A stretch of DNA of 24,000 nucleotides from Acidimicrobiia bacterium (lineage in GTDB: Bacteria > Actinomycetota > Acidimicrobiia > Spongiisociales > ZC4RG35), in the NCBI GenBank assembly GCA_049692815.1, contig JBAVPF010000549.1:1-24000 (forward strand), read 5' to 3'. Positions 1,691-21,076 of this stretch are shown in pieces (the first letter of the stretch is position 1; each line of letters opens with the position of its first letter). The notes below the pieces were generated by a model that made no database searches, was not told the DNA's origin, and worked only from the letters and a program-made list of their open reading frames with translations. The position numbers and the translations under genes were made by a program.

Positions 1691-1803
1691 CACTCGAGGT
1701 CCGACCTCAACCGCCCCCCTGCCGGATTCGGCCGGGTCCGCGGCTCAGGGCCGCAGCGGCACCGATTCGGGTAGCTTCCACCCGTCGATCGTGAGGAGGC
1801 TCG

Positions 1804-2214
1804 ATGATCCTGGAAGCATTCGAAGACCTGAACTGGCTGGCTGTGATCCTGGCCGGCCTCGCCTACTTTGTCCTGGGGGCGATCTGGTACTCCAACCTTC
1901 TGTTCGGGAAGCAATACCGGGCGGCCCTGGGAGTCACCGAAGGAGGGGGGACGCCTCAGGCCGGCCCTCTCATCGTCAACCTGATCGGTTGGCTGGTGGC
2001 CGCCCTCGCCATGGGCCTCATCGCCACCACGATCGGTGCCGATGGCTTCGCTGAAGGGGCGATGCTGGGAATCGTCGTCTGGCTCGGGTTCGTATTCACC
2101 CACCAGATCGTCAACGACGTCTACCAGGGAAGCAACATGGCCCTGGCCAAGATCAACGGCCCCTACAACCTGCTCGGCTTCGTGATCATGGGGGTCATCC
2201 TCGCCGTGATGTGA
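1804..2214 (+). CDS. DUF1761-family small membrane protein
   Basis: N-terminus LNWLAVILAGLAYFVLGAIWYSNLLFGKQY matches the DUF1761 signature as I recall it. Several hydrophobic helices. GAGGAGG Shine-Dalgarno just upstream of the ATG. Confidence 0.7.
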   Translation: MILEAFEDLNWLAVILAGLAYFVLGAIWYSNLLFGKQYRAALGVTEGGGTPQAGPLIVNLIGWLVAALAMGLIATTIGADGFAEGAMLGIVVWLGFVFTHQIVNDVYQGSNMALAKINGPYNLLGFVIMGVILAVM

Positions 2215-2369
2215 TCTCGCAACACCACCCGGCGCCGGAGACCCGCAAGCGACTCCGACACCTCGCTCTCACTCCTTTCGTCATCCGATAGCTGCACCGG
2301 CTCCGAAGAGGGGCAAGGAAACAAGCAGCTGACAGAAGCGCAGCTGAGGATTTCGAAAGGAGTTTCCCC

Positions 2370-3167
2370 ATGAGAATCGTGAAGACGGCCTTATTGGCCA
2401 TGGCCCTGGCGATCGTCCCGGCAACCGCCGCACTGGCGCAGACGGCTGAGGGCGAGGTCATCGTGGTGCACGGAGTACCCGACCTCGCCGTGGACATCTA
2501 CGTCAACGGTGACTTGACGTTCGAGAACTCCGAATTCGGCGACGTGTTCGGCCCCCTCTCCCTCCCGGAAGGCAGCTATGACATCGAGATCTACGTCACT
2601 GGCGCAGACCCATCCTCGGAGGACCCGGCCCTCTCCGGCTCGGCGGACCTGCCGGCCGGGGCGGTAGCCACCATCGCTGCCTACCTGCAGGAGGGCGGCG
2701 CTCCGACCTTGGGTGTGTTCGTCGAGAACAACGCGTCGACTGCTGCCGGTGACGCCCGCATCACCGCCCGCCACCTGGCCGATTTCGGCGCCGTCGACGT
2801 GCTGGCCAATGACGCCGCGGTTTGGGAGGGTGTGACCAACGGCGCAGGTGCAGATACCGACGTGCCGGCCGACACCTACAACATCAAGATCACCGCGGCC
2901 GGCGACCCCGCCACCGTGGCCTACGACCAGGACCTGGCTCTCGCCGAGGGGACGAACACCATCGCCTACGCGATCGGCTCGGTCTCAGGAGAGTCCTTCC
3001 AAGTCGTGGCTGCCACCCTCAGCGGGCTGGCCACTGCTCCGGAGGGTGTCCCCACCGGTGACGCCGGCTTGATCGAGCAGAACGGGCTCATGGTCCCTGC
3101 GGCCATCGCCGCTCTGGCCATCGTCGCCCTGGGCGGGTCCCTGTTCCTGGCTCGCGAGCAGCGATAG
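2370..3167 (+). CDS. Secreted DUF4397 domain protein with C-terminal hydrophobic anchor / sorting-signal-like tail
   Basis: Signal peptide MRIVKTALLAMALAIVPATAALA|QT. DUF4397-like repeats (VIVVHGVPDLAVDIYVNGD..., ARITARHLADFGAVDVLAND...). C-terminus is VPTGDAG-LIEQNG-LMVPAAIAALAIVALGGSLFLA-REQR (motif, hydrophobic stretch, basic tail). AAAGGAG RBS upstream. Confidence 0.75.
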   Translation: MRIVKTALLAMALAIVPATAALAQTAEGEVIVVHGVPDLAVDIYVNGDLTFENSEFGDVFGPLSLPEGSYDIEIYVTGADPSSEDPALSGSADLPAGAVATIAAYLQEGGAPTLGVFVENNASTAAGDARITARHLADFGAVDVLANDAAVWEGVTNGAGADTDVPADTYNIKITAAGDPATVAYDQDLALAEGTNTIAYAIGSVSGESFQVVAATLSGLATAPEGVPTGDAGLIEQNGLMVPAAIAALAIVALGGSLFLAREQR

Positions 3168-3188
3168 CACCAACCCGACACCGAACGT

Positions 3189-3216
3189 GAGAGGGGCCTT
3201 GCACAAGGCCCCTCTC
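3189..3216 (+). terminator. Perfect GC-rich hairpin between the DUF4397 gene and the sortase gene (terminator/attenuator candidate, no U-tract)
   Basis: GAGAGGGGCCTTG-ca-CAAGGCCCCTCTC: 13-nt arms are exact reverse complements (3189-3201 and 3204-3216). Lies 22 nt after the stop codon at 3167 and 21 nt before the sortase ATG. Confidence 0.4.
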
Positions 3217-3236
3217 AACGTGACTGGACCACACCG

Positions 3237-3980
3237 ATGCCGAAACCCACGCCCCAGAACGACAGGAGCCGCAGGAGGACCGCCCGAGCCCTGGGAGTGC
3301 TGGCTGCCCTACTCCTCATCCTCGCCGGCGCGATGGCCCTCGGGAAGCGAGACACCGTCGGGAACACCGACCGGTTCGGCACTCCCCCTTCCACACTGCC
3401 CAGTTCGGCGACCACGAGCACCGGGGGAACCGGGCTCACCGGAGACCTCCCGGACGACGACCCCGGCGGCATCCCGGCCAACGAGCACAGCCTCCTTGCC
3501 GAGGTTGCCAGGACGGGCGGGCCACAGCCCAACTACCTCCGCATCGACTCCCTCGGGGTCTCCGCACCGATTGTGCCCACGGGCGTCGACCAGGCCACCG
3601 GTCTCATGGAGGTTCCCGCCAATGTCGACGAAGTTGCCTGGTATCGGTACGGGCCCGAACCGGGACAAGCGGGGTCTTCCGTTCTGGCCGCACACGTCGA
3701 TCTCGAGGGGGAGGGCCCCGGAGTCTTCTTCGAGCTGCGCGAGATCGAGCCGGGGGACCGGATCGTCGTCGAGTTCGATGACGGGACCGTGCAGCGGTTC
3801 ACAGTGGAGGCGAGGACGATCTATCTGAAGGATGAGCTGCCCATCGAGTCGGTCTTCAGGCGGCAGGGGACGCCGGTGCTGACCCTGATCACGTGCGGAG
3901 GGGCATTCGACGACTCGGCACGTCGCTACGACAGCAATGTCGTGGTCTACGCAGTCCCCTCTGAATACACAACGCGGTGA
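3237..3980 (+). CDS. Class F sortase (membrane-anchored transpeptidase)
   Basis: N-terminal TM anchor ARALGVLAALLLILAGAMAL, Pro/Thr-rich linker. Catalytic core has LAAHVD (His), TLITCGG (Cys) and a downstream Arg (RRYDSNVVVYA). This length and layout are typical of actinobacterial class F sortases. Confidence 0.85.
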   Translation: MPKPTPQNDRSRRRTARALGVLAALLLILAGAMALGKRDTVGNTDRFGTPPSTLPSSATTSTGGTGLTGDLPDDDPGGIPANEHSLLAEVARTGGPQPNYLRIDSLGVSAPIVPTGVDQATGLMEVPANVDEVAWYRYGPEPGQAGSSVLAAHVDLEGEGPGVFFELREIEPGDRIVVEFDDGTVQRFTVEARTIYLKDELPIESVFRRQGTPVLTLITCGGAFDDSARRYDSNVVVYAVPSEYTTR

Positions 3981-4042
3981 GAAGAACGTCCTCGACCCGA
4001 AGCCAGGTCATCCGACAGGGCGAACGGCGACGAAGACCAAGC

Positions 4043-4471
4043 ATGAGATTGCATGAGCAGAGATGGGTCGACACTCCTCTGGAGAGAGCTTTCGCCTTCA
4101 CTTCCGACTTCTCGAACATCGAGGCTTGGGATCCCGGTGTCGTCAGCTCGACCCAGATAGGAGACGGATCGGTCGGGGTCGGCACCAGGTACGAGCTCGA
4201 CGTGAGGTTTGGCCTCTCCACGATCCCGATGATCTATGAGATCACCGAATACGAGACACCGAACCGGGTCGTCCTCGTCGGAAAGGGCACAAAGCTAGAA
4301 GCGGTCGACCAAATCGAATTCTCATCGCAGGACAACATGACACTCGTCGAATACCGCGCCGACCTCGAGTTCAAAGGGCTCGTCAGGTATGCGGTGCCCC
4401 TGCTGTCGCCCGTCTTGAAAAGGGTGGGCGCCAGGGCCCTGGATGGGCTGGTCGACGCCCTGCAACGATGA
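4043..4471 (+). CDS. SRPBCC (START / polyketide cyclase-dehydrase-like) family protein
   Basis: MRLHEQRWVDTPLERAFAFTSDFSNIEAWDPGV...YEITEYETPNRVVLVGKG is typical of SRPBCC ligand-binding proteins. I prefer the internal ATG at 4043 to the track start at 3977, whose first 22 aa are Arg/Ser-rich and overlap the sortase end. Confidence 0.7.
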   Translation: MRLHEQRWVDTPLERAFAFTSDFSNIEAWDPGVVSSTQIGDGSVGVGTRYELDVRFGLSTIPMIYEITEYETPNRVVLVGKGTKLEAVDQIEFSSQDNMTLVEYRADLEFKGLVRYAVPLLSPVLKRVGARALDGLVDALQR

Positions 4472-4925
4472 GCAAGCTGTCGATCGCCGGATTCACCAAC
4501 CTCGGGCACCTGGCCCATTCCCGATCGTTCGACCGGGCGCTCCCCAGGATGGAGGACAAGACGGTCCTGATCACCGGTGCCACCGGAGGTCTGGGTCTCG
4601 TCGCCGCACACCGCCTCTCCTCGCCGGGCGCCCGTCTGATCATCGTCGGCCGCTCCAGGCCAAAGATCGACGCTGCCCTGGAACGCCTGTCATCGAATAC
4701 CATCGCCCTGCAAGCAGACCTCTCCCTCCTCTCCGAGGTGAAAGTTCTGACAAACGAACTTCTGGACAGAGAGGACAGCATCGACGTGCTCATCAACAAC
4801 GTCGCAGTCCTGCTTCCGGAGCGAGAGACGACGTCCGAGGGCCTGGAAACGACGGTGGCCACCAGGTCATACTGACCGAGATGTGCGCAGACCGTCTCCG
4901 GGGAACCGGCGCACGTCGCGCCTGA
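4468..4925 (+). pseudogene. Short-chain dehydrogenase/reductase (SDR) remnant: frameshifted and 3'-truncated
   Basis: N-terminal Rossmann motif KTVLITGATGGLG and NNVAV (NNAG-like) are present. The frame stops at 4875 (..ETTVATRSY*). The SDR-like sequence continues in another frame (GHQVILTEMCADRLRGTGARRA*, compare GHFLLTxLLLxRLR) to 4925. The catalytic YxxxK half is missing and the next gene on the opposite strand ends at 4944. Confidence 0.6.
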
Positions 4926-4943
4926 ACCACGCGACGGCGGTCG

Positions 4944-5939
4944 TCATAGGCCCGCCAACCCGGGTCGGACCCCATCGGCCACCCAATCGTCTACTGCAGC
5001 CCACTGCTCGAAGAGCCACTCGACACGCTCCGATCGCTCGGCCGGGATCGACTCTCTGGGTATCCGCCAGAACGCAGCAGTGACCGCTCGACCGACGAGC
5101 TCGCCGCTGAACATGTCCTTCACCGTGGCAAAACCCTCGAGACCACGATGCGCCATGACAACGACATCGGCCGTCGTGGCGTCCAACAGGGCAAGTGTGC
5201 CGCCCGGTCGTGGCGGGAGCACCTTTCGCAGGCCGCCCGCCAGCTCACCGAGGCTTCCCCCTTCCGCTTGCAGTCGTCGAACGTACCTGACCCGCTTGGC
5301 CTCGCTGTACCGGGTGCCCTCGGGGAAGATCAAGACCCCTTCGTCCTGCCCGAGATCACTGACGAGGTCACGTATGGCGTTGCGTTCCCGGGCCGAATCA
5401 GCCGACTCCCGGTCCACGAACACGTTTGGCAGCCGATTGCCGGCGAGGTCCAGCGCCGGATCGACCAGCAGCTCTTTCTTGAGCACGTAGCGAAGCCGCA
5501 CCCCGTGTCGCTTGGTCACCAGCTCCGCGGGCAGAAGAGAGTCGATCAACGAAGCGTGCCGCGCCAGCAGCACTATTGGCCCCGGGGTCACCACGTCGTC
5601 AGATTCGACGGCGAATTCGAGCTGGAAGAGGGCCGTGATCGTGGTCAGGTTCCAGCCGGCCCACACCTCCTGGAGGCGGTATGTCAGATCGAGGCTCTGC
5701 CGACTCGGGAGGAGGCCGACGATCGCCAGGGCCACCACCGCCCAGACCTCGCCCAACAGGTAGACCCAAGCCAACAGGACGAGACGCCAGGTCACCCAGC
5801 GTCTACGTCGGGCCAGGCCGAGAACCACGTCGACCGCGACCCCGATGAGTATCAGCAGAGGCAGCAGAGCCGTCGTGACGATGAAGGCGGCGAGCAACCC
5901 TGGGATGGTCATCATCCTTCTGGCGAGGGGGCTGTCCAT
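4944..5939 (-). CDS. Membrane-bound lysophospholipid / 1-acyl-sn-glycerol-3-phosphate acyltransferase family protein (PlsC-like)
   Basis: N-terminal TM helices. HX4D acyltransferase motif in LLARHASLIDSLLP, and FPEGTR motif. Starts 13 nt after the anti-sigma stop, so probably the third gene of the sigma operon. Confidence 0.8.
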   Translation of the reverse strand: MDSPLARRMMTIPGLLAAFIVTTALLPLLILIGVAVDVVLGLARRRRWVTWRLVLLAWVYLLGEVWAVVALAIVGLLPSRQSLDLTYRLQEVWAGWNLTTITALFQLEFAVESDDVVTPGPIVLLARHASLIDSLLPAELVTKRHGVRLRYVLKKELLVDPALDLAGNRLPNVFVDRESADSARERNAIRDLVSDLGQDEGVLIFPEGTRYSEAKRVRYVRRLQAEGGSLGELAGGLRKVLPPRPGGTLALLDATTADVVVMAHRGLEGFATVKDMFSGELVGRAVTAAFWRIPRESIPAERSERVEWLFEQWAAVDDWVADGVRPGLAGL

Positions 5940-5952: not shown

Positions 5953-6186
5953 TCACACCCCGGTGATGGGGAAGGAATCCAACTCGGCGACTATCCGGTC
6001 CCACAAATGATGCGGCGGCTCCGAGTCGGGGATGATGGCTGCCGCCACGGAGATGGCGGTGTCCAACTCGCGCTCACACGACGGGCACGATTGCATGTGA
6101 TGCTCCAGCGTCCTCTCCTCATCAGCCGGGAGGGCGCGAAGCGCGTAGAGATCGACCATCTCGAGCAGGAGATCGTGGACCATCAC
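5953..6186 (-). CDS. Minimal zinc-binding anti-sigma factor (ZAS, zf-HC2), 77 aa, soluble
   Basis: HxxxCxxC motif (H30-MQS-C34-PS-C37) plus an N-terminal His (H4) 26 residues upstream. No TM segment and no C-terminal sensor domain. The start (GTG 6186 / ATG 6183) overlaps the sigma stop TGA (6185-6183), indicating translational coupling. Confidence 0.75.
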   Translation of the reverse strand: MMVHDLLLEMVDLYALRALPADEERTLEHHMQSCPSCERELDTAISVAAAIIPDSEPPHHLWDRIVAELDSFPITGV

Positions 6187-6761
6187 GGCGCCACTCCGGC
6201 CAGAGACACCGACAGCTTCTTCATACCGCTTCGGATACGGCTCTTGACCGTCCCTTCCGGGGTGTCCAGCCTCTTCGCCACCTCGACGTAGCTGAGCCCC
6301 CCAAAATAGGCGAGAGCTATGGCCTCACGCTCCGGCTCCGGCAGCTCGTCGAGTGCGGATCGGACGGTGTCGGACAGGCTGCTCTGCCAAACTTGGTCCT
6401 CGATATCAGGCTGAACGTCTTCGGGGACCTTCTCCTCGCGCCGGTATCTCGCCTCTTCGGAGCGAACCATGTCGACGGCACGTCGATGGGCGAGCGTCAT
6501 GAGAAATGTGCGCAGTGCCCCCCGGGCCGGGTCGTATTTGCCAGCGGCCTTCCAGAAGGTCACGAAGACCTCCTGTGCCACGTCCTCTGCCAGTGTCTCG
6601 TCGCGGAGCACGCGCATGGCCATCGTCTTCACCGCACCCCCGTAGAGCTGAAAGACGGATTCCAGAGAGGAGCGGTCACCTTCGGCCACCGCGGATGCGA
6701 GGACGGAGTCGTCAAGGTTCGGGTCGATAACCGGGTCGGGCATCAGCTGAGTCAGCGACAA
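6183..6761 (-). CDS. ECF (group 4) sigma-70 family RNA polymerase sigma factor
   Basis: Region 2 (LAEDVAQEVFVTFWKAAGKYDPARGALRTFLMTLAHRRAVDMVR) and region 4 HTH (EREAIALAYFGGLSYVEVAKRLDTPEGTVKSRIRSGMKKL). Start is either TTG at 6761 (AGGGAG 6 nt upstream) or ATG at 6743. The track's 7049 start adds about 100 Arg/Ser-rich aa and overlaps the divergent gene, so I reject it. Confidence 0.85.
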   Translation of the reverse strand: MSLTQLMPDPVIDPNLDDSVLASAVAEGDRSSLESVFQLYGGAVKTMAMRVLRDETLAEDVAQEVFVTFWKAAGKYDPARGALRTFLMTLAHRRAVDMVRSEEARYRREEKVPEDVQPDIEDQVWQSSLSDTVRSALDELPEPEREAIALAYFGGLSYVEVAKRLDTPEGTVKSRIRSGMKKLSVSLAGVAP

Positions 6762-6792: not shown

Positions 6793-6817
6793 GACGAGCG
6801 TTGACACCAGATTGTTC
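6793..6817 (-). promoter_or_regulatory. ECF-type promoter candidate upstream of the sigma gene (autoregulation)
   Basis: Minus strand reads cccGAAC-aatctggtgtcaacgct-CGTCga. This is an exact GAAC / 17-nt spacer / CGTC arrangement about 30-50 nt upstream of the candidate start codons. Confidence 0.4.
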
Positions 6818-6927
6818 GGGGCCGAGCCGCGCCCCGGATGATGGAAACCCAGGATGAAAGGCCACCCCCGGGCTGTCGACGGCCCGAGTCGACGTGCCGG
6901 CAACTAGCCTCGCACGCCAGCCACCAC

Positions 6928-7923
6928 ATGACCGCAACCCAATTCTCCGAGATCGAGCTGGCACTGACCGCCGCCGCCCTCAATGGCGATCCAGCCGGGC
7001 TGTATCGCCTCGCCACCGGGCTCATGGATGAAGGCGTTGCTTTCGACACGCTTCTGTTCGACTACTTGTTCCCCGCCGAGCGTGAAGTCGGCCGCCGCTG
7101 GCAGCAAGGCGACTACCTGGTGGCAGAGGAGCACGCCGCCACCGCGGCCGTCGAGACCGTGATCTCACTGCTGAGTGGCATGCTGGATCAGCCGACCAGC
7201 GCAACTCATGTCGTGGTGGCCGCGGCGGAAGGGGACGAGCACTCGCTGCCCGGGCGTGCCGTGGCCGCATACCTCCTCTTTCTCGGCTACAGGACGACGT
7301 TTCTCGGCGGCAGCATGCCGGCAGCGGACCTCCGGGACTTCCTGGAAGCGGAGCGGCCCGAGGCCCTCGTGCTCTCCTGCGCCATCACCAGTCATCTCGT
7401 CGGGGCTCGTTCGATGGTCGCCGCCGCCCACGCCGTCGACGTTCCCGTTGTTGTCGGTGGCAATGCCTTCGGGCCCGAGGGCCGCTGGGCAGAGGTCACC
7501 GGTGCAGATGCCTGGGTCTCCTCGCCCCTCGAGCTGCCGACGGTGATCGATCGATGGGCCGATCCGGGCATCGCGGAACTGAAGGGGGCAGGCGAACTTC
7601 CCTCCGGCCTCGTCGAAGTCATCTCGCACCGTTCCGAGATCGTCGCCCGCACCGAGACAGCCCTCGAGCGGGAGGAATCAGCGCCGGCCGCCACCACCTA
7701 TCACGACGCAGCGCGCATTCTGCTTGGAGCCGTGGAAGCGTCTCTACTCGTCGCCGATCACGAGCCGGCACTCGAGATGATTCGCTGGCTGATGAGCGCT
7801 GCGCCCGCCCGTGGGATCGACGGCGACGAGGTGGTCACCGCCCTCCTCGGAGTCCTCGAGGGGTCCTGGCTCGAGGCTCATGACATGCTGGGCGCTGCCG
7901 TGCGCGAAATGAACTCTCGATAG
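6928..7923 (+). CDS. Cobalamin (B12)-binding domain protein, CarH/LitR-like sensor module without a DNA-binding domain, with an unrecognised ~120-aa helical C-terminal extension
   Basis: B12-binding_2 helical-bundle signature VGRRWQQGDYLVAEEHAATAAVETVI. It is followed by a Rossmann-like B12-binding domain (HVVVAAAEGDEHSLPGRAVAAYLLFLGYRTTFLGGSMP...ALVLSCAITSH...VPVVVGGNAF). No MerR-type HTH at the N-terminus. I prefer ATG 6928 to the track's 6838. Confidence 0.75.
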   Translation: MTATQFSEIELALTAAALNGDPAGLYRLATGLMDEGVAFDTLLFDYLFPAEREVGRRWQQGDYLVAEEHAATAAVETVISLLSGMLDQPTSATHVVVAAAEGDEHSLPGRAVAAYLLFLGYRTTFLGGSMPAADLRDFLEAERPEALVLSCAITSHLVGARSMVAAAHAVDVPVVVGGNAFGPEGRWAEVTGADAWVSSPLELPTVIDRWADPGIAELKGAGELPSGLVEVISHRSEIVARTETALEREESAPAATTYHDAARILLGAVEASLLVADHEPALEMIRWLMSAAPARGIDGDEVVTALLGVLEGSWLEAHDMLGAAVREMNSR

Positions 7924-7959
7924 TCATCCAATCGCGGCAGCGGGTACGAACATACCCAT

Positions 7960-8715
7960 GTGACTGAGAACAAATCGACCCGCCTACGCACCTACAACGT
8001 CGTCATGGGATTGCTCCATGCCGCCCAGGCCATTGCCGTGATAGTCCTCGCCAACGACTTCACCTTGCCCGTGACCGGGACCTTCCTCACCGGCCCGCCC
8101 GGAGTTGGTTCCCCGGAGGTCACCGTCATCGGCAACCTCAGCGTCGCCTGGGGAGTCGCCATCTTCCTCTTCCTGTCTGCGGCAGCTCACCTGATCATCG
8201 CCACACCCGGCGTCTTCGGCTGGTACGAGCGCCAACTCAGCACAAATCGCAACTATGCCCGTTGGGTCGAGTACTCCCTCTCCTCTTCCGTGATGGTGGT
8301 CCTGATCGCCATGCTCGTGGGCATATTCGATGTCGCCGCTCTGCTCGGCCTGGCCGGCGTGAACGCCTCGATGATCCTCTTCGGCCTACTCCAGGAGAAA
8401 TACGAGACGCCCGGAAAGGACGTCAGTTGGACGGCCTACTGGTTCGGCGTGATCGCCGGTGCGGTCCCCTGGGTCGCCATCGGCCTCTACCTGATCGGAC
8501 CCGGCGTCGAGACCAACCCGCCCGGCTTCGTGTACGGCATCTTCTTCTCCCTGTTCGTCTTCTTCAACGTGTTCGCCGTCGTGATGGTGCTCCAATACAA
8601 GAAGGTGGGGCCGTGGGCCCGCTACCGATTCGGTGAGAGCACCTACGTGCTGCTCAGTCTCATTGCCAAGTCGGCTCTGGCCTGGCAGGTGTTCGGCGGG
8701 ACGCTCGCTGTCTGA
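7960..8715 (+). CDS. Heliorhodopsin (inverted-topology microbial rhodopsin)
   Basis: Seven hydrophobic helices, and near-colinear similarity to heliorhodopsin 48C12 as I recall it. Matching blocks: LANDFTLPVTGTFLTGPPG, RWVEYSLSSSVMVVLIA (counterion Glu), GVNASMILFGLLQEKY, PGFVYGIFFSLFVFFN, LQYK, and the retinal Schiff-base Lys in SLIAKSALAWQVFGGTL. Conserved His residues in GLLHAAQ and SAAAHLII. GTG start 36 nt after the upstream gene. Confidence 0.9.
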   Translation: MTENKSTRLRTYNVVMGLLHAAQAIAVIVLANDFTLPVTGTFLTGPPGVGSPEVTVIGNLSVAWGVAIFLFLSAAAHLIIATPGVFGWYERQLSTNRNYARWVEYSLSSSVMVVLIAMLVGIFDVAALLGLAGVNASMILFGLLQEKYETPGKDVSWTAYWFGVIAGAVPWVAIGLYLIGPGVETNPPGFVYGIFFSLFVFFNVFAVVMVLQYKKVGPWARYRFGESTYVLLSLIAKSALAWQVFGGTLAV

Positions 8716-8726: not shown

Positions 8727-8759
8727 ATATTGACATCTATCAATATATCCCTCTATCCT
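8727..8759 (+). promoter_or_regulatory. AT-rich promoter plus palindromic operator candidate for the LLM oxidoreductase (leaderless-type)
   Basis: ATATTGA-catcta-TCAATAT perfect 7-bp inverted repeat (8727-8746) overlaps TTGACA (8730-8735). TATCCT (TAnnnT-type -10) lies at 8754-8759 after an 18-nt spacer. The ATG at 8767 is 8 nt downstream with no Shine-Dalgarno. Confidence 0.4.
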
Positions 8760-8766
8760 TCCGGCC

Positions 8767-9825
8767 ATGCGTTTCGGTCTCTTTCTGCAGCCGGTTCACC
8801 CACCGACCGAGCACCCCACCGTCGCCCTGGAGCGAGACCTCGACCTGGTGGAGCTGCTCGACGACCTGGGGTACGCAGAAGCCTGGGTCGGTGAGCACCA
8901 CAGCACCGGATGGGAGAACATCGCGGCGCCAGATGTGTTCATCGCCGCCGCCGCAGAGCGAACCCGGCAGATCCGTCTCGGCACGGGGGTGATCCAGCTC
9001 GGACTGCACCACCCCCTCGTCGTCGCCGACAGGATGATCTTCCTCGACCACCTCACCAGGGGTCGGGCGATGTTCGGTGTCGGCGTTGGAGGCGGGCTTC
9101 CATCTGACCTGAAGGTCTTCGGGCTCACACGGGAAGATGCCGGGAGACGTCTCGAGGAGAGCCTCGACGTCATACTTCGGCTGCTGGAGTCGGAGGAGCC
9201 GGTCGATGAGAAGACCGACTGGTTCGAGCTGCACGATGCGACGCTTCAGCTGGAGCCGTACTCGAAGCCACACCCGACCTTCGCCATGGCAACCACCGAT
9301 CCCCGCAACGTCGAGTTGATGGGCCGGCTAGGGGGACATGTGCTCACCGGCCCGATCCCCGAGCGCGTGCCGGATCTGTTCCAGCATCTGGAGAAGGGCG
9401 CTGCCTCGGCGGGAAGGGCCGCTTCACGAGATCAGATCGTGCTCTCCTATGCGATGCACGTGGCCGAGACCCGGGACGAGGCGATGGCACAGATACGGGA
9501 GGGCGCCATTCATGAGCATTACGAGTTCAACGTCGAGGTGAACGGGGCGCCACGCCCTTCGATCAGCCCGGACGAGTGGTTTCAGAGCTACGCGGAGCGA
9601 CACATCGTGGGAACGCCTGACGATGCAGCCGAGAAGATCGAGCGTCTGCTGGAAGTCTCGGGAGGCTTTGGCGGCATCCTGTTCACCTCCCGTGACTGGG
9701 CCGGCCGGGAGGCATCCTGGGCCAGCTGGGAGCTCTTCGCCAGACAGGTCGCCCCCAGATTCCAGGGCCATCTGCGACAACAAGCCCGCGCCGCCGAGAC
9801 CGCCTCCCGCTTGAACACCCGATAG
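8767..9825 (+). CDS. LLM-class (luciferase-like) flavin-dependent monooxygenase/oxidoreductase
   Basis: MRFGLFLQP...LGYAEAWVGEHHSTGWENIAAPDVFIAAAAERTRQIRLGTGV...HPLVVADR is a typical luciferase-like monooxygenase N-terminal TIM-barrel signature. Confidence 0.85.
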   Translation: MRFGLFLQPVHPPTEHPTVALERDLDLVELLDDLGYAEAWVGEHHSTGWENIAAPDVFIAAAAERTRQIRLGTGVIQLGLHHPLVVADRMIFLDHLTRGRAMFGVGVGGGLPSDLKVFGLTREDAGRRLEESLDVILRLLESEEPVDEKTDWFELHDATLQLEPYSKPHPTFAMATTDPRNVELMGRLGGHVLTGPIPERVPDLFQHLEKGAASAGRAASRDQIVLSYAMHVAETRDEAMAQIREGAIHEHYEFNVEVNGAPRPSISPDEWFQSYAERHIVGTPDDAAEKIERLLEVSGGFGGILFTSRDWAGREASWASWELFARQVAPRFQGHLRQQARAAETASRLNTR

Positions 9826-12209: not shown

Positions 12210-13094
12210 TCAGTCGGTGTGGACGAACTCGAACACCTGGTGGTGGTCGTGTTGGTCACCCACCCAGACCTCGAAGACGTCGCCCACCGGGGCTCCTTCG
12301 AAGTACACCTTGATCTCCCATTCCCCGTTCTCGCCGACTTCCGTCGTCTGCCTGCCGAACGGAGACTCGACAACGATGGTGTAGCCGGGATGGGCCTTGC
12401 CGTAGAACACGTCGTATGGCGGGTTCTCGCTGCACTCACCGTATGCCTGGTGTGCCACGAACTCCCACTCCTGCGCGGGCTCTTCCTTGGGCTCTTCCTT
12501 CTTCGGCTCTTCTTTCTTCGGCTCCTCGGCCTTGGGCTCTTCCTTCTTCGGCTCCTCGGCCTTGGGCTCTTCCTTCTTGGGCTTCTCCGGGATGTCGACC
12601 ACCACGGTGACGCTGTCTGACGCGTCGTTGCCCGCCTCGTCGATCGCCTTCGCCGTGACGAGGTGCTCGCCCTCGTCGAACTCGAGGACGATGCGCCAGG
12701 AGCCATCGTCTTTCACGTCTGCCTGACGCTCACCGAAGTACACCTTGGCTCCGGGCTCCGTCGTGCCCTCGAAGACCACCTCGTGCTTCCCGAACACCTG
12801 GCCGTCTCCCGGGTAGAGGATCTCGATCGTCGGTGGGTTGTGATCACCGGGCTCGTACGGGACGTATTCGTCCGGCTCTTCCCAGATCACTTCCTCTTTC
12901 TCGACCTCGTCGACCTCGACCGTGCGCTCAGGCTCAGCCTTCTCCTCGATCGTGGTGGTCGTCGCCTCGACCTTCAACGTGGTCCCGGTCGCGACCTCGT
13001 CGTCGGCGACCTTCTCCGGCCCCGTCATGGCCAGGGCGGTTCCGGCAACGGCTACAACCGCCACCGTTGCGAGCAATGCGAGCCATCTGCGCAT
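12210..13094 (-). CDS. Secreted protein: signal peptide, acidic linker, Ig-like domain, (K/A)KEEP repeat linker, conserved unnamed C-terminal domain; paralogue of the 13752-14663 product
   Basis: Signal peptide MRRWLALLATVAVVAVAGTALA|M with AAGGAG RBS 6 nt upstream of ATG 13094 (preferred over the track's 13151). Ig-like block VVFEGTTEPGAKVYFGERQADVKDDGSWRIVLEFDEGEHLVTAKAIDEAGNDASDSVTVVV. The C-terminal 83 aa align with the neighbour's C-terminus. Confidence 0.75.
   Translation of the reverse strand: MRRWLALLATVAVVAVAGTALAMTGPEKVADDEVATGTTLKVEATTTTIEEKAEPERTVEVDEVEKEEVIWEEPDEYVPYEPGDHNPPTIEILYPGDGQVFGKHEVVFEGTTEPGAKVYFGERQADVKDDGSWRIVLEFDEGEHLVTAKAIDEAGNDASDSVTVVVDIPEKPKKEEPKAEEPKKEEPKAEEPKKEEPKKEEPKEEPAQEWEFVAHQAYGECSENPPYDVFYGKAHPGYTIVVESPFGRQTTEVGENGEWEIKVYFEGAPVGDVFEVWVGDQHDHHQVFEFVHTD
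12479..12590. repeat. In-frame tandem repeat, about seven copies of a 15-nt unit (two exact 30-nt copies), encoding a K(K/A)EEP linker
   Basis: cttgggctcttccttcttcggctcctcggc occurs back-to-back (12531-12560, then a near copy from 12561), with degenerate 15-nt units on both sides. It translates on the minus strand to KPKKEEPKAEEPKKEEPKAEEPKKEEPKKEEPKEEP. Confidence 0.8.
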
Positions 13095-13141
13095 CTGACA
13101 CTCCTTGTCTGATGTTCCGGTCTCCCAAGCCCGTCCCGCCG

Positions 13142-13171
13142 TAACACGCACGAAGGGGCGGTGAGGTTTAC
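13142..13171 (-). promoter_or_regulatory. ECF-type promoter candidate driving the secreted paralogue
   Basis: Minus strand reads GTAAACC-tcaccgccccttcgtg-CGTGTTA (-35 AAC motif, 16-nt spacer after the C, CGT -10 motif), about 45 nt upstream of ATG 13094. Confidence 0.4.
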
Positions 13172-13182
13172 GAGTAGCTCAG

Positions 13183-13212
13183 GTAAACCCGAACGGCTGC
13201 CGATGCGAGTGA
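13183..13212 (+). promoter_or_regulatory. ECF-type promoter candidate driving the sigma / membrane-protein operon (would give a leaderless or near-leaderless mRNA)
   Basis: Plus strand reads GTAAACC-cgaacggctgccgatg-CGAGTGA, with the same geometry as the mirror-image site at 13142-13171. The -10-like element ends 5 nt before the GTG at 13217. Confidence 0.4.
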
Positions 13213-13216
13213 TGTC

Positions 13217-13762
13217 GTGACCGCAGAAACCAAGCCCGAACCGGTCCCTCGGGACGAGGAGTTGGACATCAGTCATGAGTCTTTCGAGAGCTTCTACCGC
13301 AGGGAGTTCAGAGAAGTGGTCGGGCTCGCCTATGCACTTTCAGGGAGCCGGCTCGGTGCCGAGGACCTTGCGCAGGAGGCGTTCATCGCCGCCCATCAGC
13401 GTTGGGACCGGATCAGTGGTTACGACAAGCCCGGGGCATGGGTTCGACGTGTCGTGTCGAACAAGGCGGTCTCGGCATTCCGCAAGAGGGCCGCAGAGGC
13501 CAAGGCAATGACCCGTCTGGCAGGTCAACGTCACCAGCCCCTGCCGGAGATGGAACCGGAGGACGAGGAGTTCTGGCGGATGGTGCGTCGCCTGCCCAAC
13601 CGACAGGCACAGGCGATCGCTCTCTTCTACATCGAGGATCGGTCCGTGATCGAGATAGCCGACATCCTCGACTGCAGTCCTTCCACTGCAAAGGTCCACC
13701 TCTTTCGTGGCCGCCAGGCGTTGGCCGAAAAGCTGGGTCTGGAGGTGACCGATGAGTCGTGA
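13217..13762 (+). CDS. ECF (group 4) sigma-70 family RNA polymerase sigma factor
   Basis: Region 2 (FYRREFREVVGLAYALSGSRLGAEDLAQEAFIAAHQRWDRISGYDKPGAWVRRVVSNKAVSAFR) and region 4 (NRQAQAIALFYIEDRSVIEIADILDCSPSTAKVHLFRGRQALAEKL). GTG start at 13217; an in-frame TTG at 13259 is an alternative. Confidence 0.85.
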   Translation: MTAETKPEPVPRDEELDISHESFESFYRREFREVVGLAYALSGSRLGAEDLAQEAFIAAHQRWDRISGYDKPGAWVRRVVSNKAVSAFRKRAAEAKAMTRLAGQRHQPLPEMEPEDEEFWRMVRRLPNRQAQAIALFYIEDRSVIEIADILDCSPSTAKVHLFRGRQALAEKLGLEVTDES

Positions 13763-14663
13763 CCTCGATACCCGTGCGCGGCGGGCCGCTTCCAACCTGC
13801 GCGATTCCATGTCGGACGCCCAGCTCAGCTCGGTCCAGCCCGGGGCGCCGAGACGACGCCGCGCACTGATCGCCGTATTGCGCCCGGCATGGGTGGTGGC
13901 CCTTCTGCTCGTGGGATCCGCAGTCGGCCTGGCAATGGTGCTCGACTCTCCACCTGCGGCGACCCCGACGACCGAGGCTCCGGTGACGAGCACGACCGTC
14001 GTGGTCACGACAACCGCCGCACCGACGGTCACCAGCGAGCCTGCTCCGCCCACCACGGCGGCTGTGGTGCCCGTCGCACCGACGACGACGGAAGCTGGTG
14101 ACACAGAGCCTCCGCCACTCGCGATCACCTCACCGGAGAACGGCGCCGAGTTCGAGAAGAAGACGATCACCTTCGCCGGCACCACCGAGCCGGGAGCACG
14201 GGTTTTCGCCGGGAAGTACGAAGCCGATGTCGACGGCGAGGGCAACTGGCACATCGCGCTGATCCTCGGCGAGGGGAAGAACGTCGCCAGGTTCGTGGCC
14301 CGAGACCAGGCCGGGAACGAGGCCGAGGCTTCGGTGACCGTCTACTACGTCGCCCCCACCACGACGACCACGAAGCCGGAGACTCCCACCACCGAGAAGG
14401 AGTTGGCGGCATTCACCGCCAACCAGAGCTACGGGTCCTGCTCGGAAACCCCGCCGTATGACGTGTTCTACGGGAAGGGTGAGCCGGGGTCCTGGGTCGA
14501 TATCACCTCCGAGTACGGATCGGCAGAGCTTCAGGTGGGAGAGAATGGCCAGTGGGAAAAGAAGGTGTATTTCGAAACGGCCCCTGCCGGGACGCCTTTC
14601 GGTGTGCGGATCGCCGACCAGTACGGGCGGGTCCTCGAGTTCCAATTCGTCTACACCCCCTGA
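13752..14663 (+). CDS. Single-pass membrane protein translationally coupled to the ECF sigma (anti-sigma candidate): short cytoplasmic N-terminus, TM, PT-rich linker, Ig-like domain, TT-rich linker, conserved unnamed C-terminal domain
   Basis: ATG 13752 overlaps the sigma stop (13760-13762) by 11 nt. TM segment ALIAVLRPAWVVALLLVGSAVGLAMVL. Ig-like block ITFAGTTEPGARVFAGKYEADVDGEGNWHIALILGEGKNVARFVARDQAGNEAEASVTVYY. C-terminal domain FTANQSYGSCSETPPYDVFYGK...VGENGQWEKKVYFETAP. No recognisable zf-HC2 or other anti-sigma domain. Confidence 0.75.
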   Translation: MSRDLDTRARRAASNLRDSMSDAQLSSVQPGAPRRRRALIAVLRPAWVVALLLVGSAVGLAMVLDSPPAATPTTEAPVTSTTVVVTTTAAPTVTSEPAPPTTAAVVPVAPTTTEAGDTEPPPLAITSPENGAEFEKKTITFAGTTEPGARVFAGKYEADVDGEGNWHIALILGEGKNVARFVARDQAGNEAEASVTVYYVAPTTTTTKPETPTTEKELAAFTANQSYGSCSETPPYDVFYGKGEPGSWVDITSEYGSAELQVGENGQWEKKVYFETAPAGTPFGVRIADQYGRVLEFQFVYTP

Positions 14664-17036: not shown

Positions 17037-17064
17037 TGGGCTCGGTCAATCTAGTTGTGGAGGA

Positions 17065-17101: not shown

Positions 17102-17112
17102 GCCTGATGCTT

Positions 17113-17667: not shown

Positions 17668-17675
17668 CGCAGCCC

Positions 17676-20721: not shown

Positions 20722-20745
20722 TGTGGATCCTTGACTACCAGTCCG

Positions 20746-21075: not shown

Positions 21076-21076
21076 G

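What the first reader, a model, noticed from the sequence alone, without database searches (positions are those of the whole stretch)
6928..8715. Heliorhodopsin apparently co-transcribed with a cobalamin-binding photoreceptor-type protein: a two-chromophore operon
Seen: a B12-binding-domain protein (6928-7923) ends 36 nt before a same-strand heliorhodopsin gene (7960-8715). I found no terminator hairpin or promoter hexamers in the gap. Established: heliorhodopsins are retinal proteins with a long photocycle and no ion pumping, generally thought to signal through partner proteins. Only a few partners have been reported (glutamine synthetase, photolyase). B12-binding_2 plus B12-binding modules of this type are the light-sensing unit of CarH/LitR photoreceptors. 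Inference: two different light-absorbing cofactor proteins in one transcription unit suggests either a physical HeR/B12-protein signalling pair or dual-wavelength sensing. I do not know of a described heliorhodopsin/cobalamin-protein partnership.
Basis: partly seen in the sequence, partly recalled or inferred. Interest (0 to 1): 0.85.

Follow-up and report, generated by a model that had tools for sequence, protein, structure and literature searches.

The report
Light-sensor, sigma factor and heliorhodopsin island
The heliorhodopsin gene is not simply the tail of a two-gene operon: it has its own stress-sigma-factor promoter inside the 36-base gap. The vitamin-B12 protein upstream is a recently described B12-plus-bilin light sensor (photocobilin) whose steadiest neighbour is that sigma factor, which points to a light-to-sigma-factor-to-heliorhodopsin gene circuit.

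Summary
The genes are real. ORF 6928-7923 is a 331-aa B12-binding protein and ORF 7960-8715 is a canonical heliorhodopsin (HeR), on the same strand with a 36-nt gap and no terminator.

Three corrections follow.

1. The B12 protein is a stand-alone photocobilin: a CarH-type B12 module plus a C-terminal photoglobin domain. The family profile matches PDB 8J2W at E 8e-55, and the model matches 8J2Y at TM 0.85. It has no DNA-binding domain.
2. The gap holds a conserved bipartite promoter, tCATCCg-N17-CGAA, ending 9 nt before the HeR start. The motif precedes 30 of 33 related HeR genes exactly. It also precedes the divergent ECF sigma gene, furan-fatty-acid genes (ufaD-ufaO-ufaM-like), SRPBCC-SDR, DUF4397-sortase and acyltransferase genes. 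Counts are 88 correctly placed sites against 1.2 in shuffles.
3. The sigma factor is SigK-like. Mycobacterial sigK loci carry the same amine-oxidase/DUF1365/CMAS genes and the same CCGAA -10 box.

HeR follows the photocobilin gene in 13 of 40 assessable loci. The sigma gene lies upstream in 26 of 27.

Best reading: photocobilin is the light input (inferred), SigK is the output, and HeR is a light or photo-oxidative-stress regulon member. A physical HeR-photocobilin pair is not excluded, but nothing beyond adjacency supports it.

The parts
6928..7923 (+). Stand-alone photocobilin: four-helix B12-binding_2 bundle, Rossmann B12-binding domain and C-terminal five-helix photoglobin domain (about residues 226-330). 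It has no DNA-binding domain.
   Evidence: Pfam. The family profile A1 hits PDB 8J2W/8J2X (SasPcob) at E 8e-55 over positions 13-309 and 8J2Y (AbPcob) at 7e-47. The AF2 model has pLDDT 92.7. Foldseek gives TM 0.80 to 8J2W/X and 0.84-0.85 to 8J2Y over the full length. W58, E68, H69, H105 and W287 correspond to SasPcob W61, E71, H72, H108 and W296. The biliverdin-binding D270 position is A261 here.
7925..7950 (+). SigK-type ECF promoter of the HeR gene (-35 CATCCA, -10 region GGGTACGAA). It ends 9 nt before the GTG start, implying a leaderless or near-leaderless mRNA.
   Evidence: The motif is exact upstream of 30 of 33 HeR genes of island loci. 41 of 88 unique sites have a start codon exactly 8 nt after CGAA.
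7960..8715 (+). Heliorhodopsin, closely related to HeR 48C12.
   Evidence: Pfam E 7e-100. NCBIfam equivalog 321 bits. PDB 6SU3/9LJJ at E 3e-77, with the 48C12 motifs WVEYSLSS (containing the Glu107 counterion) and KSALAWQ conserved in the alignment.
6183..6761 (-). SigK-like ECF sigma factor, divergent from the photocobilin gene (start at TTG 6761 or ATG 6743).
   Evidence: Pfam Sigma70_r2/r4_2/ECF. Best NCBIfam match is the SigK subfamily at 168 bits, below its cutoff of 226. Best PDB match is M. tuberculosis SigK 4NQW at 1.4e-27, then R. sphaeroides RpoE 2Q1Z. Orthologues at 57-73% identity lie beside the photocobilin gene in 26 of 27 loci.
5953..6186 (-). Short (77 aa) soluble zf-HC2 anti-sigma factor. 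It corresponds to the N-terminal domain of RskA; the membrane and extracytoplasmic part is missing.
   Evidence: Pfam zf-HC2 and RskA_N. Close relatives L127 and L134 have 207-224 aa RskA_C forms that are 68-73% identical over the N-terminus.
6815..6840 (-). SigK-type promoter for the sigma/anti-sigma(/acyltransferase) operon, indicating autoregulation.
   Evidence: The same motif precedes the sigma gene in 9 further loci of WIN+L001-L055 (10 sites including this one), and in L127, L130, L132 and L133.
6905..6910 (+). TAGCCT, a TANNNT-type (housekeeping sigma) -10-like hexamer 17 nt before the photocobilin ATG. No SigK motif is present here.
   Evidence: Direct reading. TAGCCT or another TANNNT hexamer lies upstream of the B12 gene start (about 15-35 nt by eye) in nearly all 21 sigma-adjacent loci printed.
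4944..5939 (-). Lysophospholipid acyltransferase-family gene, 13 nt after the anti-sigma gene. It is probably part of the sigma operon here.
   Evidence: Pfam Acyltransferase. Orthologues carry their own SigK motif in 7 loci.
4009..4875 (+). SigK-type promoter (4009-4034), SRPBCC gene (4049-4471) and a truncated SDR gene (4468-4875, 135 aa against about 306-311 aa in relatives).
2282..3980 (+). SigK-type promoter (2282-2307), DUF4397 gene (2370-3167) and sortase gene (3237-3980).
8730..9825 (+). Sigma-70-like promoter TTGACA-18-TATCCT (8730-8759) and a luciferase-like monooxygenase gene (8767-9825). This is transcriptionally separate from HeR.
   Evidence: The B12-HeR-LLM-amylase order is kept in L127 and L134.

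Best explanation
The locus is the core of a light and photo-oxidative-stress island of Acidimicrobiia, built around a SigK-type ECF sigma factor.

Shown:
- The B12 protein is a stand-alone photocobilin without a DNA-binding domain. A housekeeping-type -10 hexamer precedes its gene.
- The HeR gene carries its own SigK-type promoter in the 36-nt gap.
- The same promoter precedes the sigma operon itself, a ufaD-ufaO-ufaM-like furan-fatty-acid operon, SRPBCC-SDR, DUF4397-sortase and acyltransferase genes. In close relatives a DNA photolyase sits in the sigma operon.

Inferred:
- The photocobilin, whose B12-dependent quaternary and conformational state changes in light in characterised homologues, acts by protein-protein contact on SigK or on its anti-sigma factor (RskA-like, here cut down to a soluble 77-aa domain).
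- Light thereby frees SigK.
- SigK-RNA polymerase then transcribes HeR together with the membrane-lipid and repair genes.

On this reading HeR is an output of the circuit, a light-induced second-tier light-dependent effector. It is not the signalling partner of the B12 protein.

My confidence by step: protein identities about 0.97; HeR as an independently promoted SigK-regulon member about 0.85; photocobilin controlling SigK about 0.45.
For: Photocobilin identity: and PMC10979010. That paper states that stand-alone photocobilins act through protein-protein interactions and that their function is unclear.

Promoter:
- 4 window hits against 0.40 expected.
- 139 sites against 13 in shuffles, and 88 correctly oriented within 200 nt of a gene start against 1.2 (maximum 5) in shuffles.
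- Targets: HeR 25, ufaD 11, sigma 10, DUF4397 9, SRPBCC 7, acyltransferase 7.
- The -35 and -10 boxes are invariant while the spacer varies. A start codon lies 8 nt downstream in 41 of 88 sites.
- HeR genes: 30 of 33 exact, 3 with one mismatch.

SigK identity:
- Best PDB and NCBIfam hits.
- M. tuberculosis and M. marinum sigK loci encode Amino_oxidase-DUF1365-CMAS-DUF1295-SigK-RskA.
- CCGTCC-N16-CCGAAT (M. tuberculosis) and GGCTCCGAAT (M. marinum) lie upstream of the amine-oxidase gene.
- A fasciclin (MPT83-like) gene with the motif is present in L130.

Synteny:
- Sigma upstream of the photocobilin gene in 26 of 27 loci, directly divergent in 20 of 40.
- A compact module <anti-sigma <sigma >photocobilin sits in otherwise unrelated flanks (L004-L010, L014, L028, L129).
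- All 15 loci with a short soluble anti-sigma have a photocobilin gene within 5.6 kb. Nine further loci lack a recognisable anti-sigma ORF after sigma, and eight of them have a photocobilin gene nearby.

Other B12 photoreceptors beside HeR genes are DNA-binding regulators: HTH_17/MerR-B12 in L072 and L103, and B12-HTH_3 in L063. This fits B12-dependent light control of HeR transcription as the general theme.

Light induces SigK-dependent genes in M. kansasii (PMC9861118). The ufaD/ufaO/ufaM homologues belong to the singlet-oxygen sigmaE-ChrR regulon of R. sphaeroides (PMC7380195).
Against: - No experiment or complex prediction links the photocobilin to SigK or RskA. That step rests on synteny alone.
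- Most loci were collected through the photocobilin gene, which biases the sample.
- In the unbiased sigma-seeded sample, 5 of 8 loci have a photocobilin within 9 kb. Two (L128, L130) have none, so SigK can work without an adjacent photocobilin.
- The published prediction for SasPcob partners is STAS/SpoIIE/PP2C proteins, not ECF sigma factors.
- The promoter assignment is by motif and position only. No transcription start site data exist.
- With no terminator in the gap, read-through from the photocobilin promoter into HeR remains possible.
- The sigma factor scores below the NCBIfam SigK cutoff (168 against 226 bits).
- The biliverdin-binding Asp of SasPcob is Ala in this protein, so bilin binding is uncertain.
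Confidence: 0.6

Rival explanations
1. Photocobilin and HeR are co-transcribed and form a physical signalling pair or a dual- or triple-wavelength sensor complex, with the soluble photocobilin docking on HeR's cytoplasmic face.
For: - Same strand, 33-250 nt gaps, and always in the order B12 then HeR, in 13 of 40 loci plus L049, L127, L131, L133 and L134.
- The arrangement occurs in both major clades of the photocobilin tree.
- In L131 the pair sits together 5 kb away from sigma.
- There is no terminator in the gap.
- HeRs are known to regulate soluble and membrane partners: photolyase (PMC9769723) and an ABC transporter (PMC11109279).
- Stand-alone photocobilins act through protein-protein interactions.
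Against: - HeR has its own conserved promoter in the gap.
- 27 of 40 photocobilin loci have no HeR downstream.
- HeR is also found as HeR-SRPBCC-SDR away from the photocobilin gene (L031, L040, L044-L048, L053, L055, L132).
- Only 1 of 50 assessable HeR loci has the photocobilin gene upstream.
- The photocobilin gene is linked far more tightly to sigma (26 of 27).
- Shared membership of a small, shuffled island of roughly a dozen recurrent gene families makes frequent adjacency unsurprising.
Confidence: 0.15
2. A light-related gene island without direct coupling. SigK-RskA senses singlet oxygen, redox or envelope signals on its own, as proposed for sigmaE-ChrR and for M. tuberculosis SigK-RskA. 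The photocobilin regulates some unrelated target and merely clusters with other light-related genes.
For: - SigK loci without a photocobilin exist (L128, L130, and the mycobacterial L125 and L126).
- In assembly DATHVR01 the photocobilin (L041) and sigK (L130) lie on different contigs.
- M. tuberculosis SigK-RskA is reported to be redox-sensitive, according to a reference title cited in PMC9861118.
- The published partner predictions for SasPcob are partner-switching proteins.
Against: - The divergent sigma/photocobilin arrangement persists across very different flanks and across the deepest split of the family.
- It persists when the anti-sigma has lost its membrane sensor domain or is absent, which is exactly when another input is needed.
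Confidence: 0.2
3. The B12 protein is a corrinoid methyl-carrier (MtbC/MtaC-like), as JGI annotates many family members. On this reading the locus has nothing to do with light sensing by B12.
For: JGI names such as 'methanogenic corrinoid protein MtbC1'. Weak NCBIfam hits to MtgC/MtbC at 25-34 bits, against cutoffs of 215-450.
Against: - The best NCBIfam hit is CarH.
- The Wx9EH photoreceptor signature is invariant in the family.
- The full-length sequence and fold match photocobilins, including the photoglobin domain.
- No methyltransferase partner genes occur among the recurrent gene clusters of the related loci.
Confidence: 0.02

Closest known systems
Photocobilins SasPcob (PDB 8J2W/8J2X) and AbPcob (8J2Y); Zhang et al., Nat Commun 2024 (PMC10979010)
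   Same: Same three-domain build: four-helix bundle, Rossmann B12 domain and C-terminal five-helix photoglobin. It is stand-alone like SasPcob. W-x9-EH, the His lower ligand and the Trp that stacks on the bilin D ring are all conserved.
   Different: About 26-33% identity only. The biliverdin-binding Asp270 is Ala261 here (Glu in most of this subfamily; AbPcob has His). The genomic partner here is a SigK-type ECF sigma/anti-sigma pair, not the STAS/SpoIIE/PP2C or fused GGDEF outputs described so far.
CarH/LitR AdoCbl photoreceptor-repressors (for example T. thermophilus CarH, PDB 5C8D)
   Same: Homologous light-sensing B12 module with the Wx9EH signature. Both control light-induced genes. In Streptomyces, LitR acts upstream of an ECF sigma factor, LitS (from my own knowledge, not checked here).
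   Different: There is no MerR/HTH domain, so it cannot be a DNA-binding repressor. It has an extra photoglobin domain. True HTH-B12 proteins do sit next to other HeR genes (L072, L103).
SigK-RskA regulon of mycobacteria (PDB 4NQW; PMC7509140)
   Same: - It is the best structural and sequence relative of the sigma factor.
- The anti-sigma is zf-HC2/RskA-type.
- The same amine-oxidase/DUF1365/CMAS operon lies at the sigK locus.
- A fasciclin (MPT83-like) target is present (L130).
- The -10 box CCGAA(T) is shared.
- A naturally truncated 81-aa RskA is known in Nocardia, comparable to the 77-aa form here.
   Different: No photocobilin and no HeR occur at the mycobacterial loci. The inducing signal of SigK is described as unknown. 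The sigma factor here is below the NCBIfam SigK cutoff.
SigmaE-ChrR singlet-oxygen regulon of Rhodobacter sphaeroides (RSP1087-1091, ufaM; PMC7380195)
   Same: An ECF sigma with a zinc anti-sigma controls UfaD (FAD amine-oxidase-like), UfaO (DUF1365) and UfaM (CMAS-like) furan-fatty-acid genes, along with SDR-type genes. RpoE 2Q1Z is the second-best PDB hit. That regulon also includes a photolyase (from my own knowledge, not checked here).
   Different: ChrR has a cupin sensor domain, whereas here the anti-sigma is RskA-type or a bare N-terminal domain. No B12 photoreceptor or rhodopsin is known in that regulon.
AerR/PpaA stand-alone cobalamin-binding antirepressors of purple bacteria (PMC10734443)
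   Same: A B12-binding photoreceptor without a DNA-binding domain that controls transcription by binding another regulator. This is the functional analogy for the inferred step.
   Different: The target there is the repressor CrtJ/PpsR, not a sigma/anti-sigma pair. AerR/PpaA has a different domain make-up, with no photoglobin.
Published HeR neighbourhood surveys (bioRxiv 10.1101/2021.02.16.431466; PMC11109279; bioRxiv 10.1101/2021.02.01.429150)
   Same: - Cobalamin-binding proteins are listed among enriched HeR neighbours. B12-binding_2 occurs in 6 of 876 actinobacterial group-A HeR windows, and 5 of those 6 are in a co-expression orientation.
- 'MerR family regulator' and 'SDR' HeR-neighbour groups have been defined.
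- HeR has been linked to oxidative stress and lipid remodelling.
   Different: None of these surveys identifies the neighbour as a photocobilin, describes the SigK-type promoter, or places HeR in an ECF regulon.

Membership tests
Heliorhodopsin | Sequence membership above the curated thresholds | tested here: met
   Pfam PF18761 at 333.8 bits (cutoff 26.7). NCBIfam HeR equivalog at 321.6 bits (cutoff 100).
Heliorhodopsin | Schiff-base Lys in the last helix and a Glu counterion, as in HeR 48C12 | tested here: met
   The alignment to 48C12 (6SU3/9LJJ, E 3e-77) conserves WVEYSLSS and L(I/V)AKSALAWQ. The assignment of E107 and K241 within these motifs is from my knowledge of 48C12.
Heliorhodopsin | Retinal binding, long photocycle, no ion pumping | not testable with these tools
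   Needs expression and spectroscopy.
Photocobilin (B12 + photoglobin photoreceptor) | B12-binding_2 four-helix bundle, Rossmann B12 domain and C-terminal five-helix globin-like domain in one chain | tested here: met
   Profile hit to 8J2W over positions 13-309 at E 8e-55. AF2 model with pLDDT 92.7 and five C-terminal helices. TM 0.80-0.85 to 8J2W/X/Y.
Photocobilin (B12 + photoglobin photoreceptor) | Light-sensing B12 signature: W-x9/10-EH, plus E/DxH with His as the lower axial ligand | tested here: met
   W58, E68, H69, D103 and H105 are invariant in 37 family members. They align to SasPcob W61, E71, H72 and H108.
Photocobilin (B12 + photoglobin photoreceptor) | Biliverdin-binding residues (SasPcob Asp270 and Trp296) | tested here: inconclusive
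   The Trp296 equivalent, W287, is invariant. The Asp270 position is Ala261 in the window protein and Glu in most family members. AbPcob, with His at this position, still binds biliverdin weakly.
Photocobilin (B12 + photoglobin photoreceptor) | AdoCbl and biliverdin binding and light-driven state change | not testable with these tools
   Needs purified protein, UV-vis spectroscopy and SEC-MALS.
CarH/LitR photoreceptor-repressor | N-terminal MerR-type HTH DNA-binding domain fused to the B12 module | tested here: not met
   No HTH domain in Pfam or NCBIfam. The protein starts directly with the B12-binding_2 bundle, and the CarH model matches only model positions 113-254, which are the B12 module.
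SigK-RskA ECF system | Sigma factor belongs to the SigK group | tested here: inconclusive
   Best NCBIfam model is the SigK subfamily at 168 bits, below its cutoff of 226. Best PDB hit is M. tuberculosis SigK 4NQW at 1.4e-27.
SigK-RskA ECF system | Co-transcribed zf-HC2/RskA anti-sigma factor | tested here: met
   The window has a 77-aa zf-HC2/RskA_N protein overlapping the sigma stop. Relatives have 207-244 aa RskA_C forms with a transmembrane segment.
SigK-RskA ECF system | Conserved regulon genes and promoter | tested here: met
   Mycobacterial loci encode Amino_oxidase-DUF1365-CMAS next to sigK-rskA, with CCGTCC-N16-CCGAAT upstream. Acidimicrobiia loci have the same genes behind tCATCCg-N17-CGAA. 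A fasciclin gene carries the motif in L130.
Two-gene operon (B12 gene and HeR gene as one transcription unit) | Same strand, short gap, no terminator | tested here: met
   36-nt gap and no terminator-like site.
Two-gene operon (B12 gene and HeR gene as one transcription unit) | No internal promoter, with the downstream gene depending on the upstream promoter | tested here: not met
   A conserved SigK-type promoter lies at 7925-7950 and is also present when HeR has other upstream neighbours. Actual transcripts were not measured.

The most novel reading that the evidence does not exclude
The stand-alone photocobilin is a light-sensing anti-sigma or anti-anti-sigma partner of SigK. If so, this island would provide three things:
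1. The first physiological output for stand-alone photocobilins.
2. A concrete candidate for the long-unknown signal of the SigK-RskA family, namely light.
3. The first defined transcriptional circuit for a heliorhodopsin, with HeR induced together with furan-fatty-acid, acyltransferase and photolyase genes as part of a two-tier light response. The first tier is a B12/bilin sensor that switches the regulon on. The second is a retinal protein that then modulates regulon products in the light.
Probability: 0.35. Interest if true: 0.8.

Novelty: new variant of a known kind. Interest (0 to 1): 0.66.

Why it matters
Heliorhodopsins are abundant, but their cellular role is unsettled. Stand-alone photocobilins have no known physiological target. 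The inducing signal of the actinobacterial SigK-RskA system is described as unknown.

This locus ties the three together in a testable way:
- a defined promoter that puts HeR in an ECF regulon together with membrane-lipid (furan fatty acid, acyltransferase) genes, and with a DNA photolyase gene in close relatives;
- a B12/bilin photoreceptor gene locked next to the sigma/anti-sigma pair.

It supports the earlier, purely statistical link of HeR with oxidative stress and lipid remodelling. It also suggests simple reporter experiments, for example in M. smegmatis, which lacks sigK-rskA.

Tried and rejected
- Corrinoid methyl-carrier reading (the JGI 'MtbC1' names): rejected on motifs, fold and context.
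- CarH/LitR membership: rejected because there is no HTH domain.
- Strict search for CATCC-N17-CGAA in the mycobacterial sigK loci: nothing at the expected place. Relaxing the -35 box and the spacing revealed CCGTCC-N16-CCGAAT upstream of the amine-oxidase gene.
- I first read the intergenic motif on the wrong strand, as 'TTCG..GGATG'. Its position relative to genes showed that the true orientation is CATCC..CGAA.
- The Veyrier 2008 paper (PMC2258859), needed for the published SigK consensus, is not held. My recollection of the consensus (about CCATCC..CCGAAT) is therefore unverified.
- My first home-made gene caller missed the sigma gene. I replaced it with a codon-position GC caller.
- LOV signature in the PAS kinase at 182-1690: absent.
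- Sigma-70 and terminator scan of the gap: nothing found.
- Two tool failures, both repeated successfully.
- Complex prediction (photocobilin with sigma, anti-sigma or HeR) was not possible: the structure tool folds single chains of window or database proteins only.


Full report
**1. Observation**

Both ORFs exist as described. [quoted passage not shown] ORF 7960-8715 (+) encodes 251 aa that match Pfam Heliorhodopsin at E 7e-100. The first protein is 100% identical to a protein of an Acidimicrobiia MAG. The gap is 36 nt. It contains no terminator-like hairpin and no sigma-70 consensus.

The second ORF is a canonical heliorhodopsin. It reaches the NCBIfam equivalog at 321 bits. Its match to HeR 48C12 is E 3e-77, with the WVEYSLSS and KSALAWQ motifs conserved.

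**2. The B12 protein is a photocobilin**

An alignment of 37 homologues (A1) shows a family of about 330 aa that is conserved end to end. W58, E68 and H69 (Wx9EH), G102-D103-x-H105, S150-x-L and G177-G178 are invariant. A conserved helical C-terminal region of about 100 aa carries the invariant W287. There is no HTH domain.

The profile matches PDB 8J2W/8J2X (Saccharothrix syringae photocobilin) at E 8e-55 over positions 13-309. It matches 8J2Y (Acidimicrobiaceae photocobilin domain) at 7e-47. CarH B12 domains come far behind, at about 1e-11. An AlphaFold2 model (pLDDT 92.7) superposes over its full length on 8J2Y (TM 0.84-0.85) and on 8J2W/X (TM 0.80). CarH domains cover only the first ~210 residues.

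Photocobilins bind AdoCbl in the CarH-like module and biliverdin in the C-terminal photoglobin domain. For stand-alone members the authors state that the function is unclear and that they act through protein-protein interactions (PMC10979010).

Residue mapping gives these SasPcob equivalents: W61/E71/H72/H108/W296 correspond to W58/E68/H69/H105/W287. The biliverdin-binding Asp270 corresponds to Ala261 in this protein and to Glu in most of the subfamily. Bilin binding therefore remains open. JGI's names for family members ('MtbC1', 'MerR family light-induced regulator') are mis-annotations.

**3. What the gap contains**

Positions 7925-7950 read CATCCAATCGCGGCAGCGGGTACGAA and end 9 nt before the GTG start of HeR. 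The pattern CATCC-N17-CGAA occurs four times in the window against 0.40 expected. Every copy is intergenic and points into a gene:
- HeR (7925-7950, +);
- the SRPBCC gene (4009-4034, +);
- the DUF4397-sortase pair (2282-2307, +);
- the divergent ECF sigma gene (6815-6840, -).

Across the window plus 55 related loci there are 139 sites against 13 in shuffles. Of these, 88 lie within 200 nt upstream of a same-strand gene, against 1.2 (maximum 5) in shuffles. The downstream genes are HeR (25), ufaD-like (11), sigma (10), DUF4397 (9), SRPBCC (7), acyltransferase (7) and DUF2867 (2). Only one site precedes the photocobilin gene.

The consensus is T-CATCCG-N10-CgGctcCGAA, with a variable spacer. In 41 of 88 unique sites a start codon lies exactly 8 nt after CGAA. 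That is the geometry expected of a -10 box driving a leaderless mRNA. Among the 33 HeR genes in these loci, 30 have an exact copy upstream and 3 have a one-mismatch copy. This holds whatever gene lies upstream of HeR.

The photocobilin gene instead has a TAGCCT (TANNNT-type) hexamer 17 nt before its ATG. That hexamer or a TANNNT variant recurs in nearly all sigma-adjacent loci. That TANNNT is the actinobacterial housekeeping -10 consensus is from my own knowledge.

**4. The sigma factor is SigK-like**

The divergent gene pair at 6761/6743-6183 and 6186-5953 encodes an ECF sigma factor and a 77-aa zf-HC2/RskA_N anti-sigma factor. The sigma factor's best NCBIfam model is the SigK subfamily, at 168 bits and below the cutoff of 226. 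Its best solved relative is M. tuberculosis SigK (4NQW, 1.4e-27), followed by R. sphaeroides RpoE.

I fetched the M. tuberculosis-complex and M. marinum sigK loci. Both read Amino_oxidase-DUF1365-CMAS-DUF1295-SigK-RskA. Upstream of the amine-oxidase gene they carry CCGTCC-N16-CCGAAT and ...GGCTCCGAAT. This is the same -10 box as in the Acidimicrobiia motif.

The same three enzymes form the most recurrent operon of the Acidimicrobiia loci. They correspond to UfaD, UfaO and UfaM, which make furan fatty acids in the singlet-oxygen sigmaE-ChrR regulon of R. sphaeroides (PMC7380195).

Three further links to SigK:
- In L130 a fasciclin (MPT83-like) gene carries the motif. This matches the mpt83-sigK-rskA cassette described for SigK (PMC7509140).
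- That paper calls the SigK signal unknown.
- Light induces SigK-dependent genes in M. kansasii (PMC9861118).

**5. Conservation of the adjacency, from three samples**

(a) Photocobilin-seeded sample: 44 species-level loci.
- HeR lies directly downstream in 13 of 40 loci that have at least 800 bp downstream, counting the window.
- In four more loci HeR sits elsewhere in the island, in three of them (L031, L040, L044) as HeR-SRPBCC-SDR beyond the sigma gene.
- The orthologous sigma gene (57-73% identity) lies upstream on the opposite strand in 26 of 27 loci with at least 5.5 kb of upstream sequence. It is directly divergent in 20 of 40.
- In many species a bare module <anti-sigma <sigma >photocobilin sits in unrelated flanks.

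(b) HeR-seeded sample: 80 metagenomic loci at 58-77% identity.
- Only L049 has the photocobilin gene upstream, out of 50 loci with enough upstream sequence.
- Six of the eleven closest HeRs are arranged as HeR-SRPBCC-SDR.
- Three more distant HeRs have a different B12 photoreceptor beside them: HTH_17/MerR-B12 directly downstream (L072, L103) and B12-HTH_3 divergent (L063). All three are DNA-binding regulators.

(c) Sigma-seeded sample: 8 new loci.
- A photocobilin gene lies within 9 kb in 5 of 8.
- The B12-then-HeR adjacency occurs in 4 of 8.
- HeR is present in 5 of 8, always with the motif.
- L128 and L130 have no photocobilin gene.

A neighbour-joining tree of the photocobilins shows the B12-then-HeR order in both major clades, and it dominates in the window's clade. 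The adjacency is therefore real and recurrent, but facultative. The invariant features are the sigma-photocobilin linkage and the HeR promoter.

Published surveys had already listed cobalamin-binding genes among enriched HeR neighbours. B12-binding_2 occurs in 6 of 876 actinobacterial windows. Cho et al. defined 'MerR family regulator' and 'SDR' neighbour groups.

**6. Mechanism**

Shown: the protein identities; an independent SigK-type promoter for HeR; and a shared promoter for the sigma operon, the ufaDOM-like operon, SRPBCC-SDR, DUF4397-sortase and acyltransferase genes. In the close relatives L127 and L134, and also in L133, a DNA photolyase follows the acyltransferase gene in the sigK-anti-sigma-acyltransferase gene string.

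Inferred: the photocobilin, expressed from a housekeeping-type promoter, senses light. In characterised homologues, AdoCbl photolysis changes the quaternary state and the protein's contacts with partner proteins. The photocobilin would relay this to SigK by contact with sigma or anti-sigma.

Hints for that step:
- Anti-sigma factors come in two forms: a long form (207-244 aa, with a transmembrane segment) and a short soluble form (70-85 aa).
- All 15 loci with the short form have a photocobilin gene within 5.6 kb.
- Nine loci have no recognisable anti-sigma ORF after sigma, and eight of them have a photocobilin gene nearby (the ninth, L046, ends too soon to tell).
- The two sigma loci without a photocobilin gene both have the long form.

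The sample is biased and small, so this is not proof. On this model HeR is an output, made when light or photo-oxidative stress is sensed. It would then be free to act on regulon products. HeR-photolyase and HeR-ABC-transporter partnerships are documented elsewhere (PMC9769723, PMC11109279).

**7. Novelty and caveats**

No paper in the searched library links photocobilins or photoglobins to ECF sigma factors or rhodopsins, or places HeR under an ECF promoter.

All parts are of known kinds: photocobilin, SigK-RskA, Ufa enzymes and HeR. Light-responsive ECF regulons and B12 photoreceptors that act through protein contacts (AerR) are also known. I therefore class this as a new variant of a known kind.

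Caveats:
- No transcript data are available.
- The promoter-to-sigma assignment rests on autoregulation, geometry and the mycobacterial parallel.
- Read-through from the photocobilin promoter is not excluded.
- The sequences are MAGs.
- The photocobilin-to-SigK link is synteny-based only.

Noticed in passing
window 4468-4943 and 5953-6186; compare L127 9576-14534 and L134 9116-13393: Relative to its closest relatives (sigma 78-81% identical), the window's island looks eroded. The SDR gene stops at 135 aa (against 311), only 68 nt from the acyltransferase gene. The DNA photolyase gene between them (and, as in L127, a KAS III gene) is missing. The anti-sigma is 77 aa instead of 207-224 aa. This could be deletions in this lineage or an assembly artefact.
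   Followed up: partly
L021 1398-1436; also L015 1793-1831, L045 4784-4822, L131 5631-5670: Two SigK-type promoters on opposite strands overlap. Their -10 boxes share the palindrome TTCGGCGCCGAA. One drives the acyltransferase gene and the other a BD-FAE/alpha-beta-hydrolase gene. RNA polymerase binding to the two should be mutually exclusive.
   Followed up: no
window 8730-8767: A near-consensus sigma-70 promoter (TTGACA-18-TATCCT) ends 7 nt before the ATG of the luciferase-like monooxygenase gene. This is another apparently leaderless gene. The B12-HeR-LLM-alpha-amylase order is kept in L127 and L134.
   Followed up: partly
window 12210-14663: A second, unrelated ECF sigma gene (13217-13762) is flanked on both sides by Glucodextran_B/Big-domain proteins (12210-13076 on the minus strand, 13809-14663 on the plus strand). 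The same trio is syntenic in L127 and L134.
   Followed up: no
window 182-2214: A PAS-PAS histidine kinase (182-1690, no LOV NCRFLQ signature) and a DUF1761 gene (1804-2214) lie at the left edge of the island. They are syntenic in L127 and L134. No cognate response regulator was seen nearby.
   Followed up: partly
L015 and L043, immediately downstream of the sigma gene: The anti-sigma ORF is interrupted after 13 codons (MTNHNLHEPIPPA*), whereas the related L021, L045 and L132 have full-length MTNHN(L/I)LHEL(I/V)PLYALD... proteins of 243-244 aa. This looks like a frameshift or pseudogene that would leave SigK without its anti-sigma.
   Followed up: no
L072 846-1805, L103 2371-3261, L063 5587-6636: Other HeR lineages (59-63% identity to this HeR) have different B12 photoreceptors as immediate neighbours. 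These are HTH_17/MerR-B12 directly downstream of HeR (overlapping it in L072), and a B12 module with a C-terminal XRE-type HTH_3 in divergent orientation.
   Followed up: partly
L130 7804-8406: A fasciclin-domain (MPT70/MPT83-like) gene is preceded by the SigK-type motif in an Acidimicrobiia MAG. This extends the mycobacterial mpt83-sigK-rskA cassette to this class.
   Followed up: partly
window 14748-23986: The rest of the window appears unrelated to the island. It holds a molybdopterin oxidoreductase (14748-17036, minus strand), an SCO4226-like protein, a large AAA_16-LuxR regulator (18049-20604, minus strand), two ORFs without Pfam hits (20879-21652, 21923-23362) and a Usp protein.
   Followed up: no
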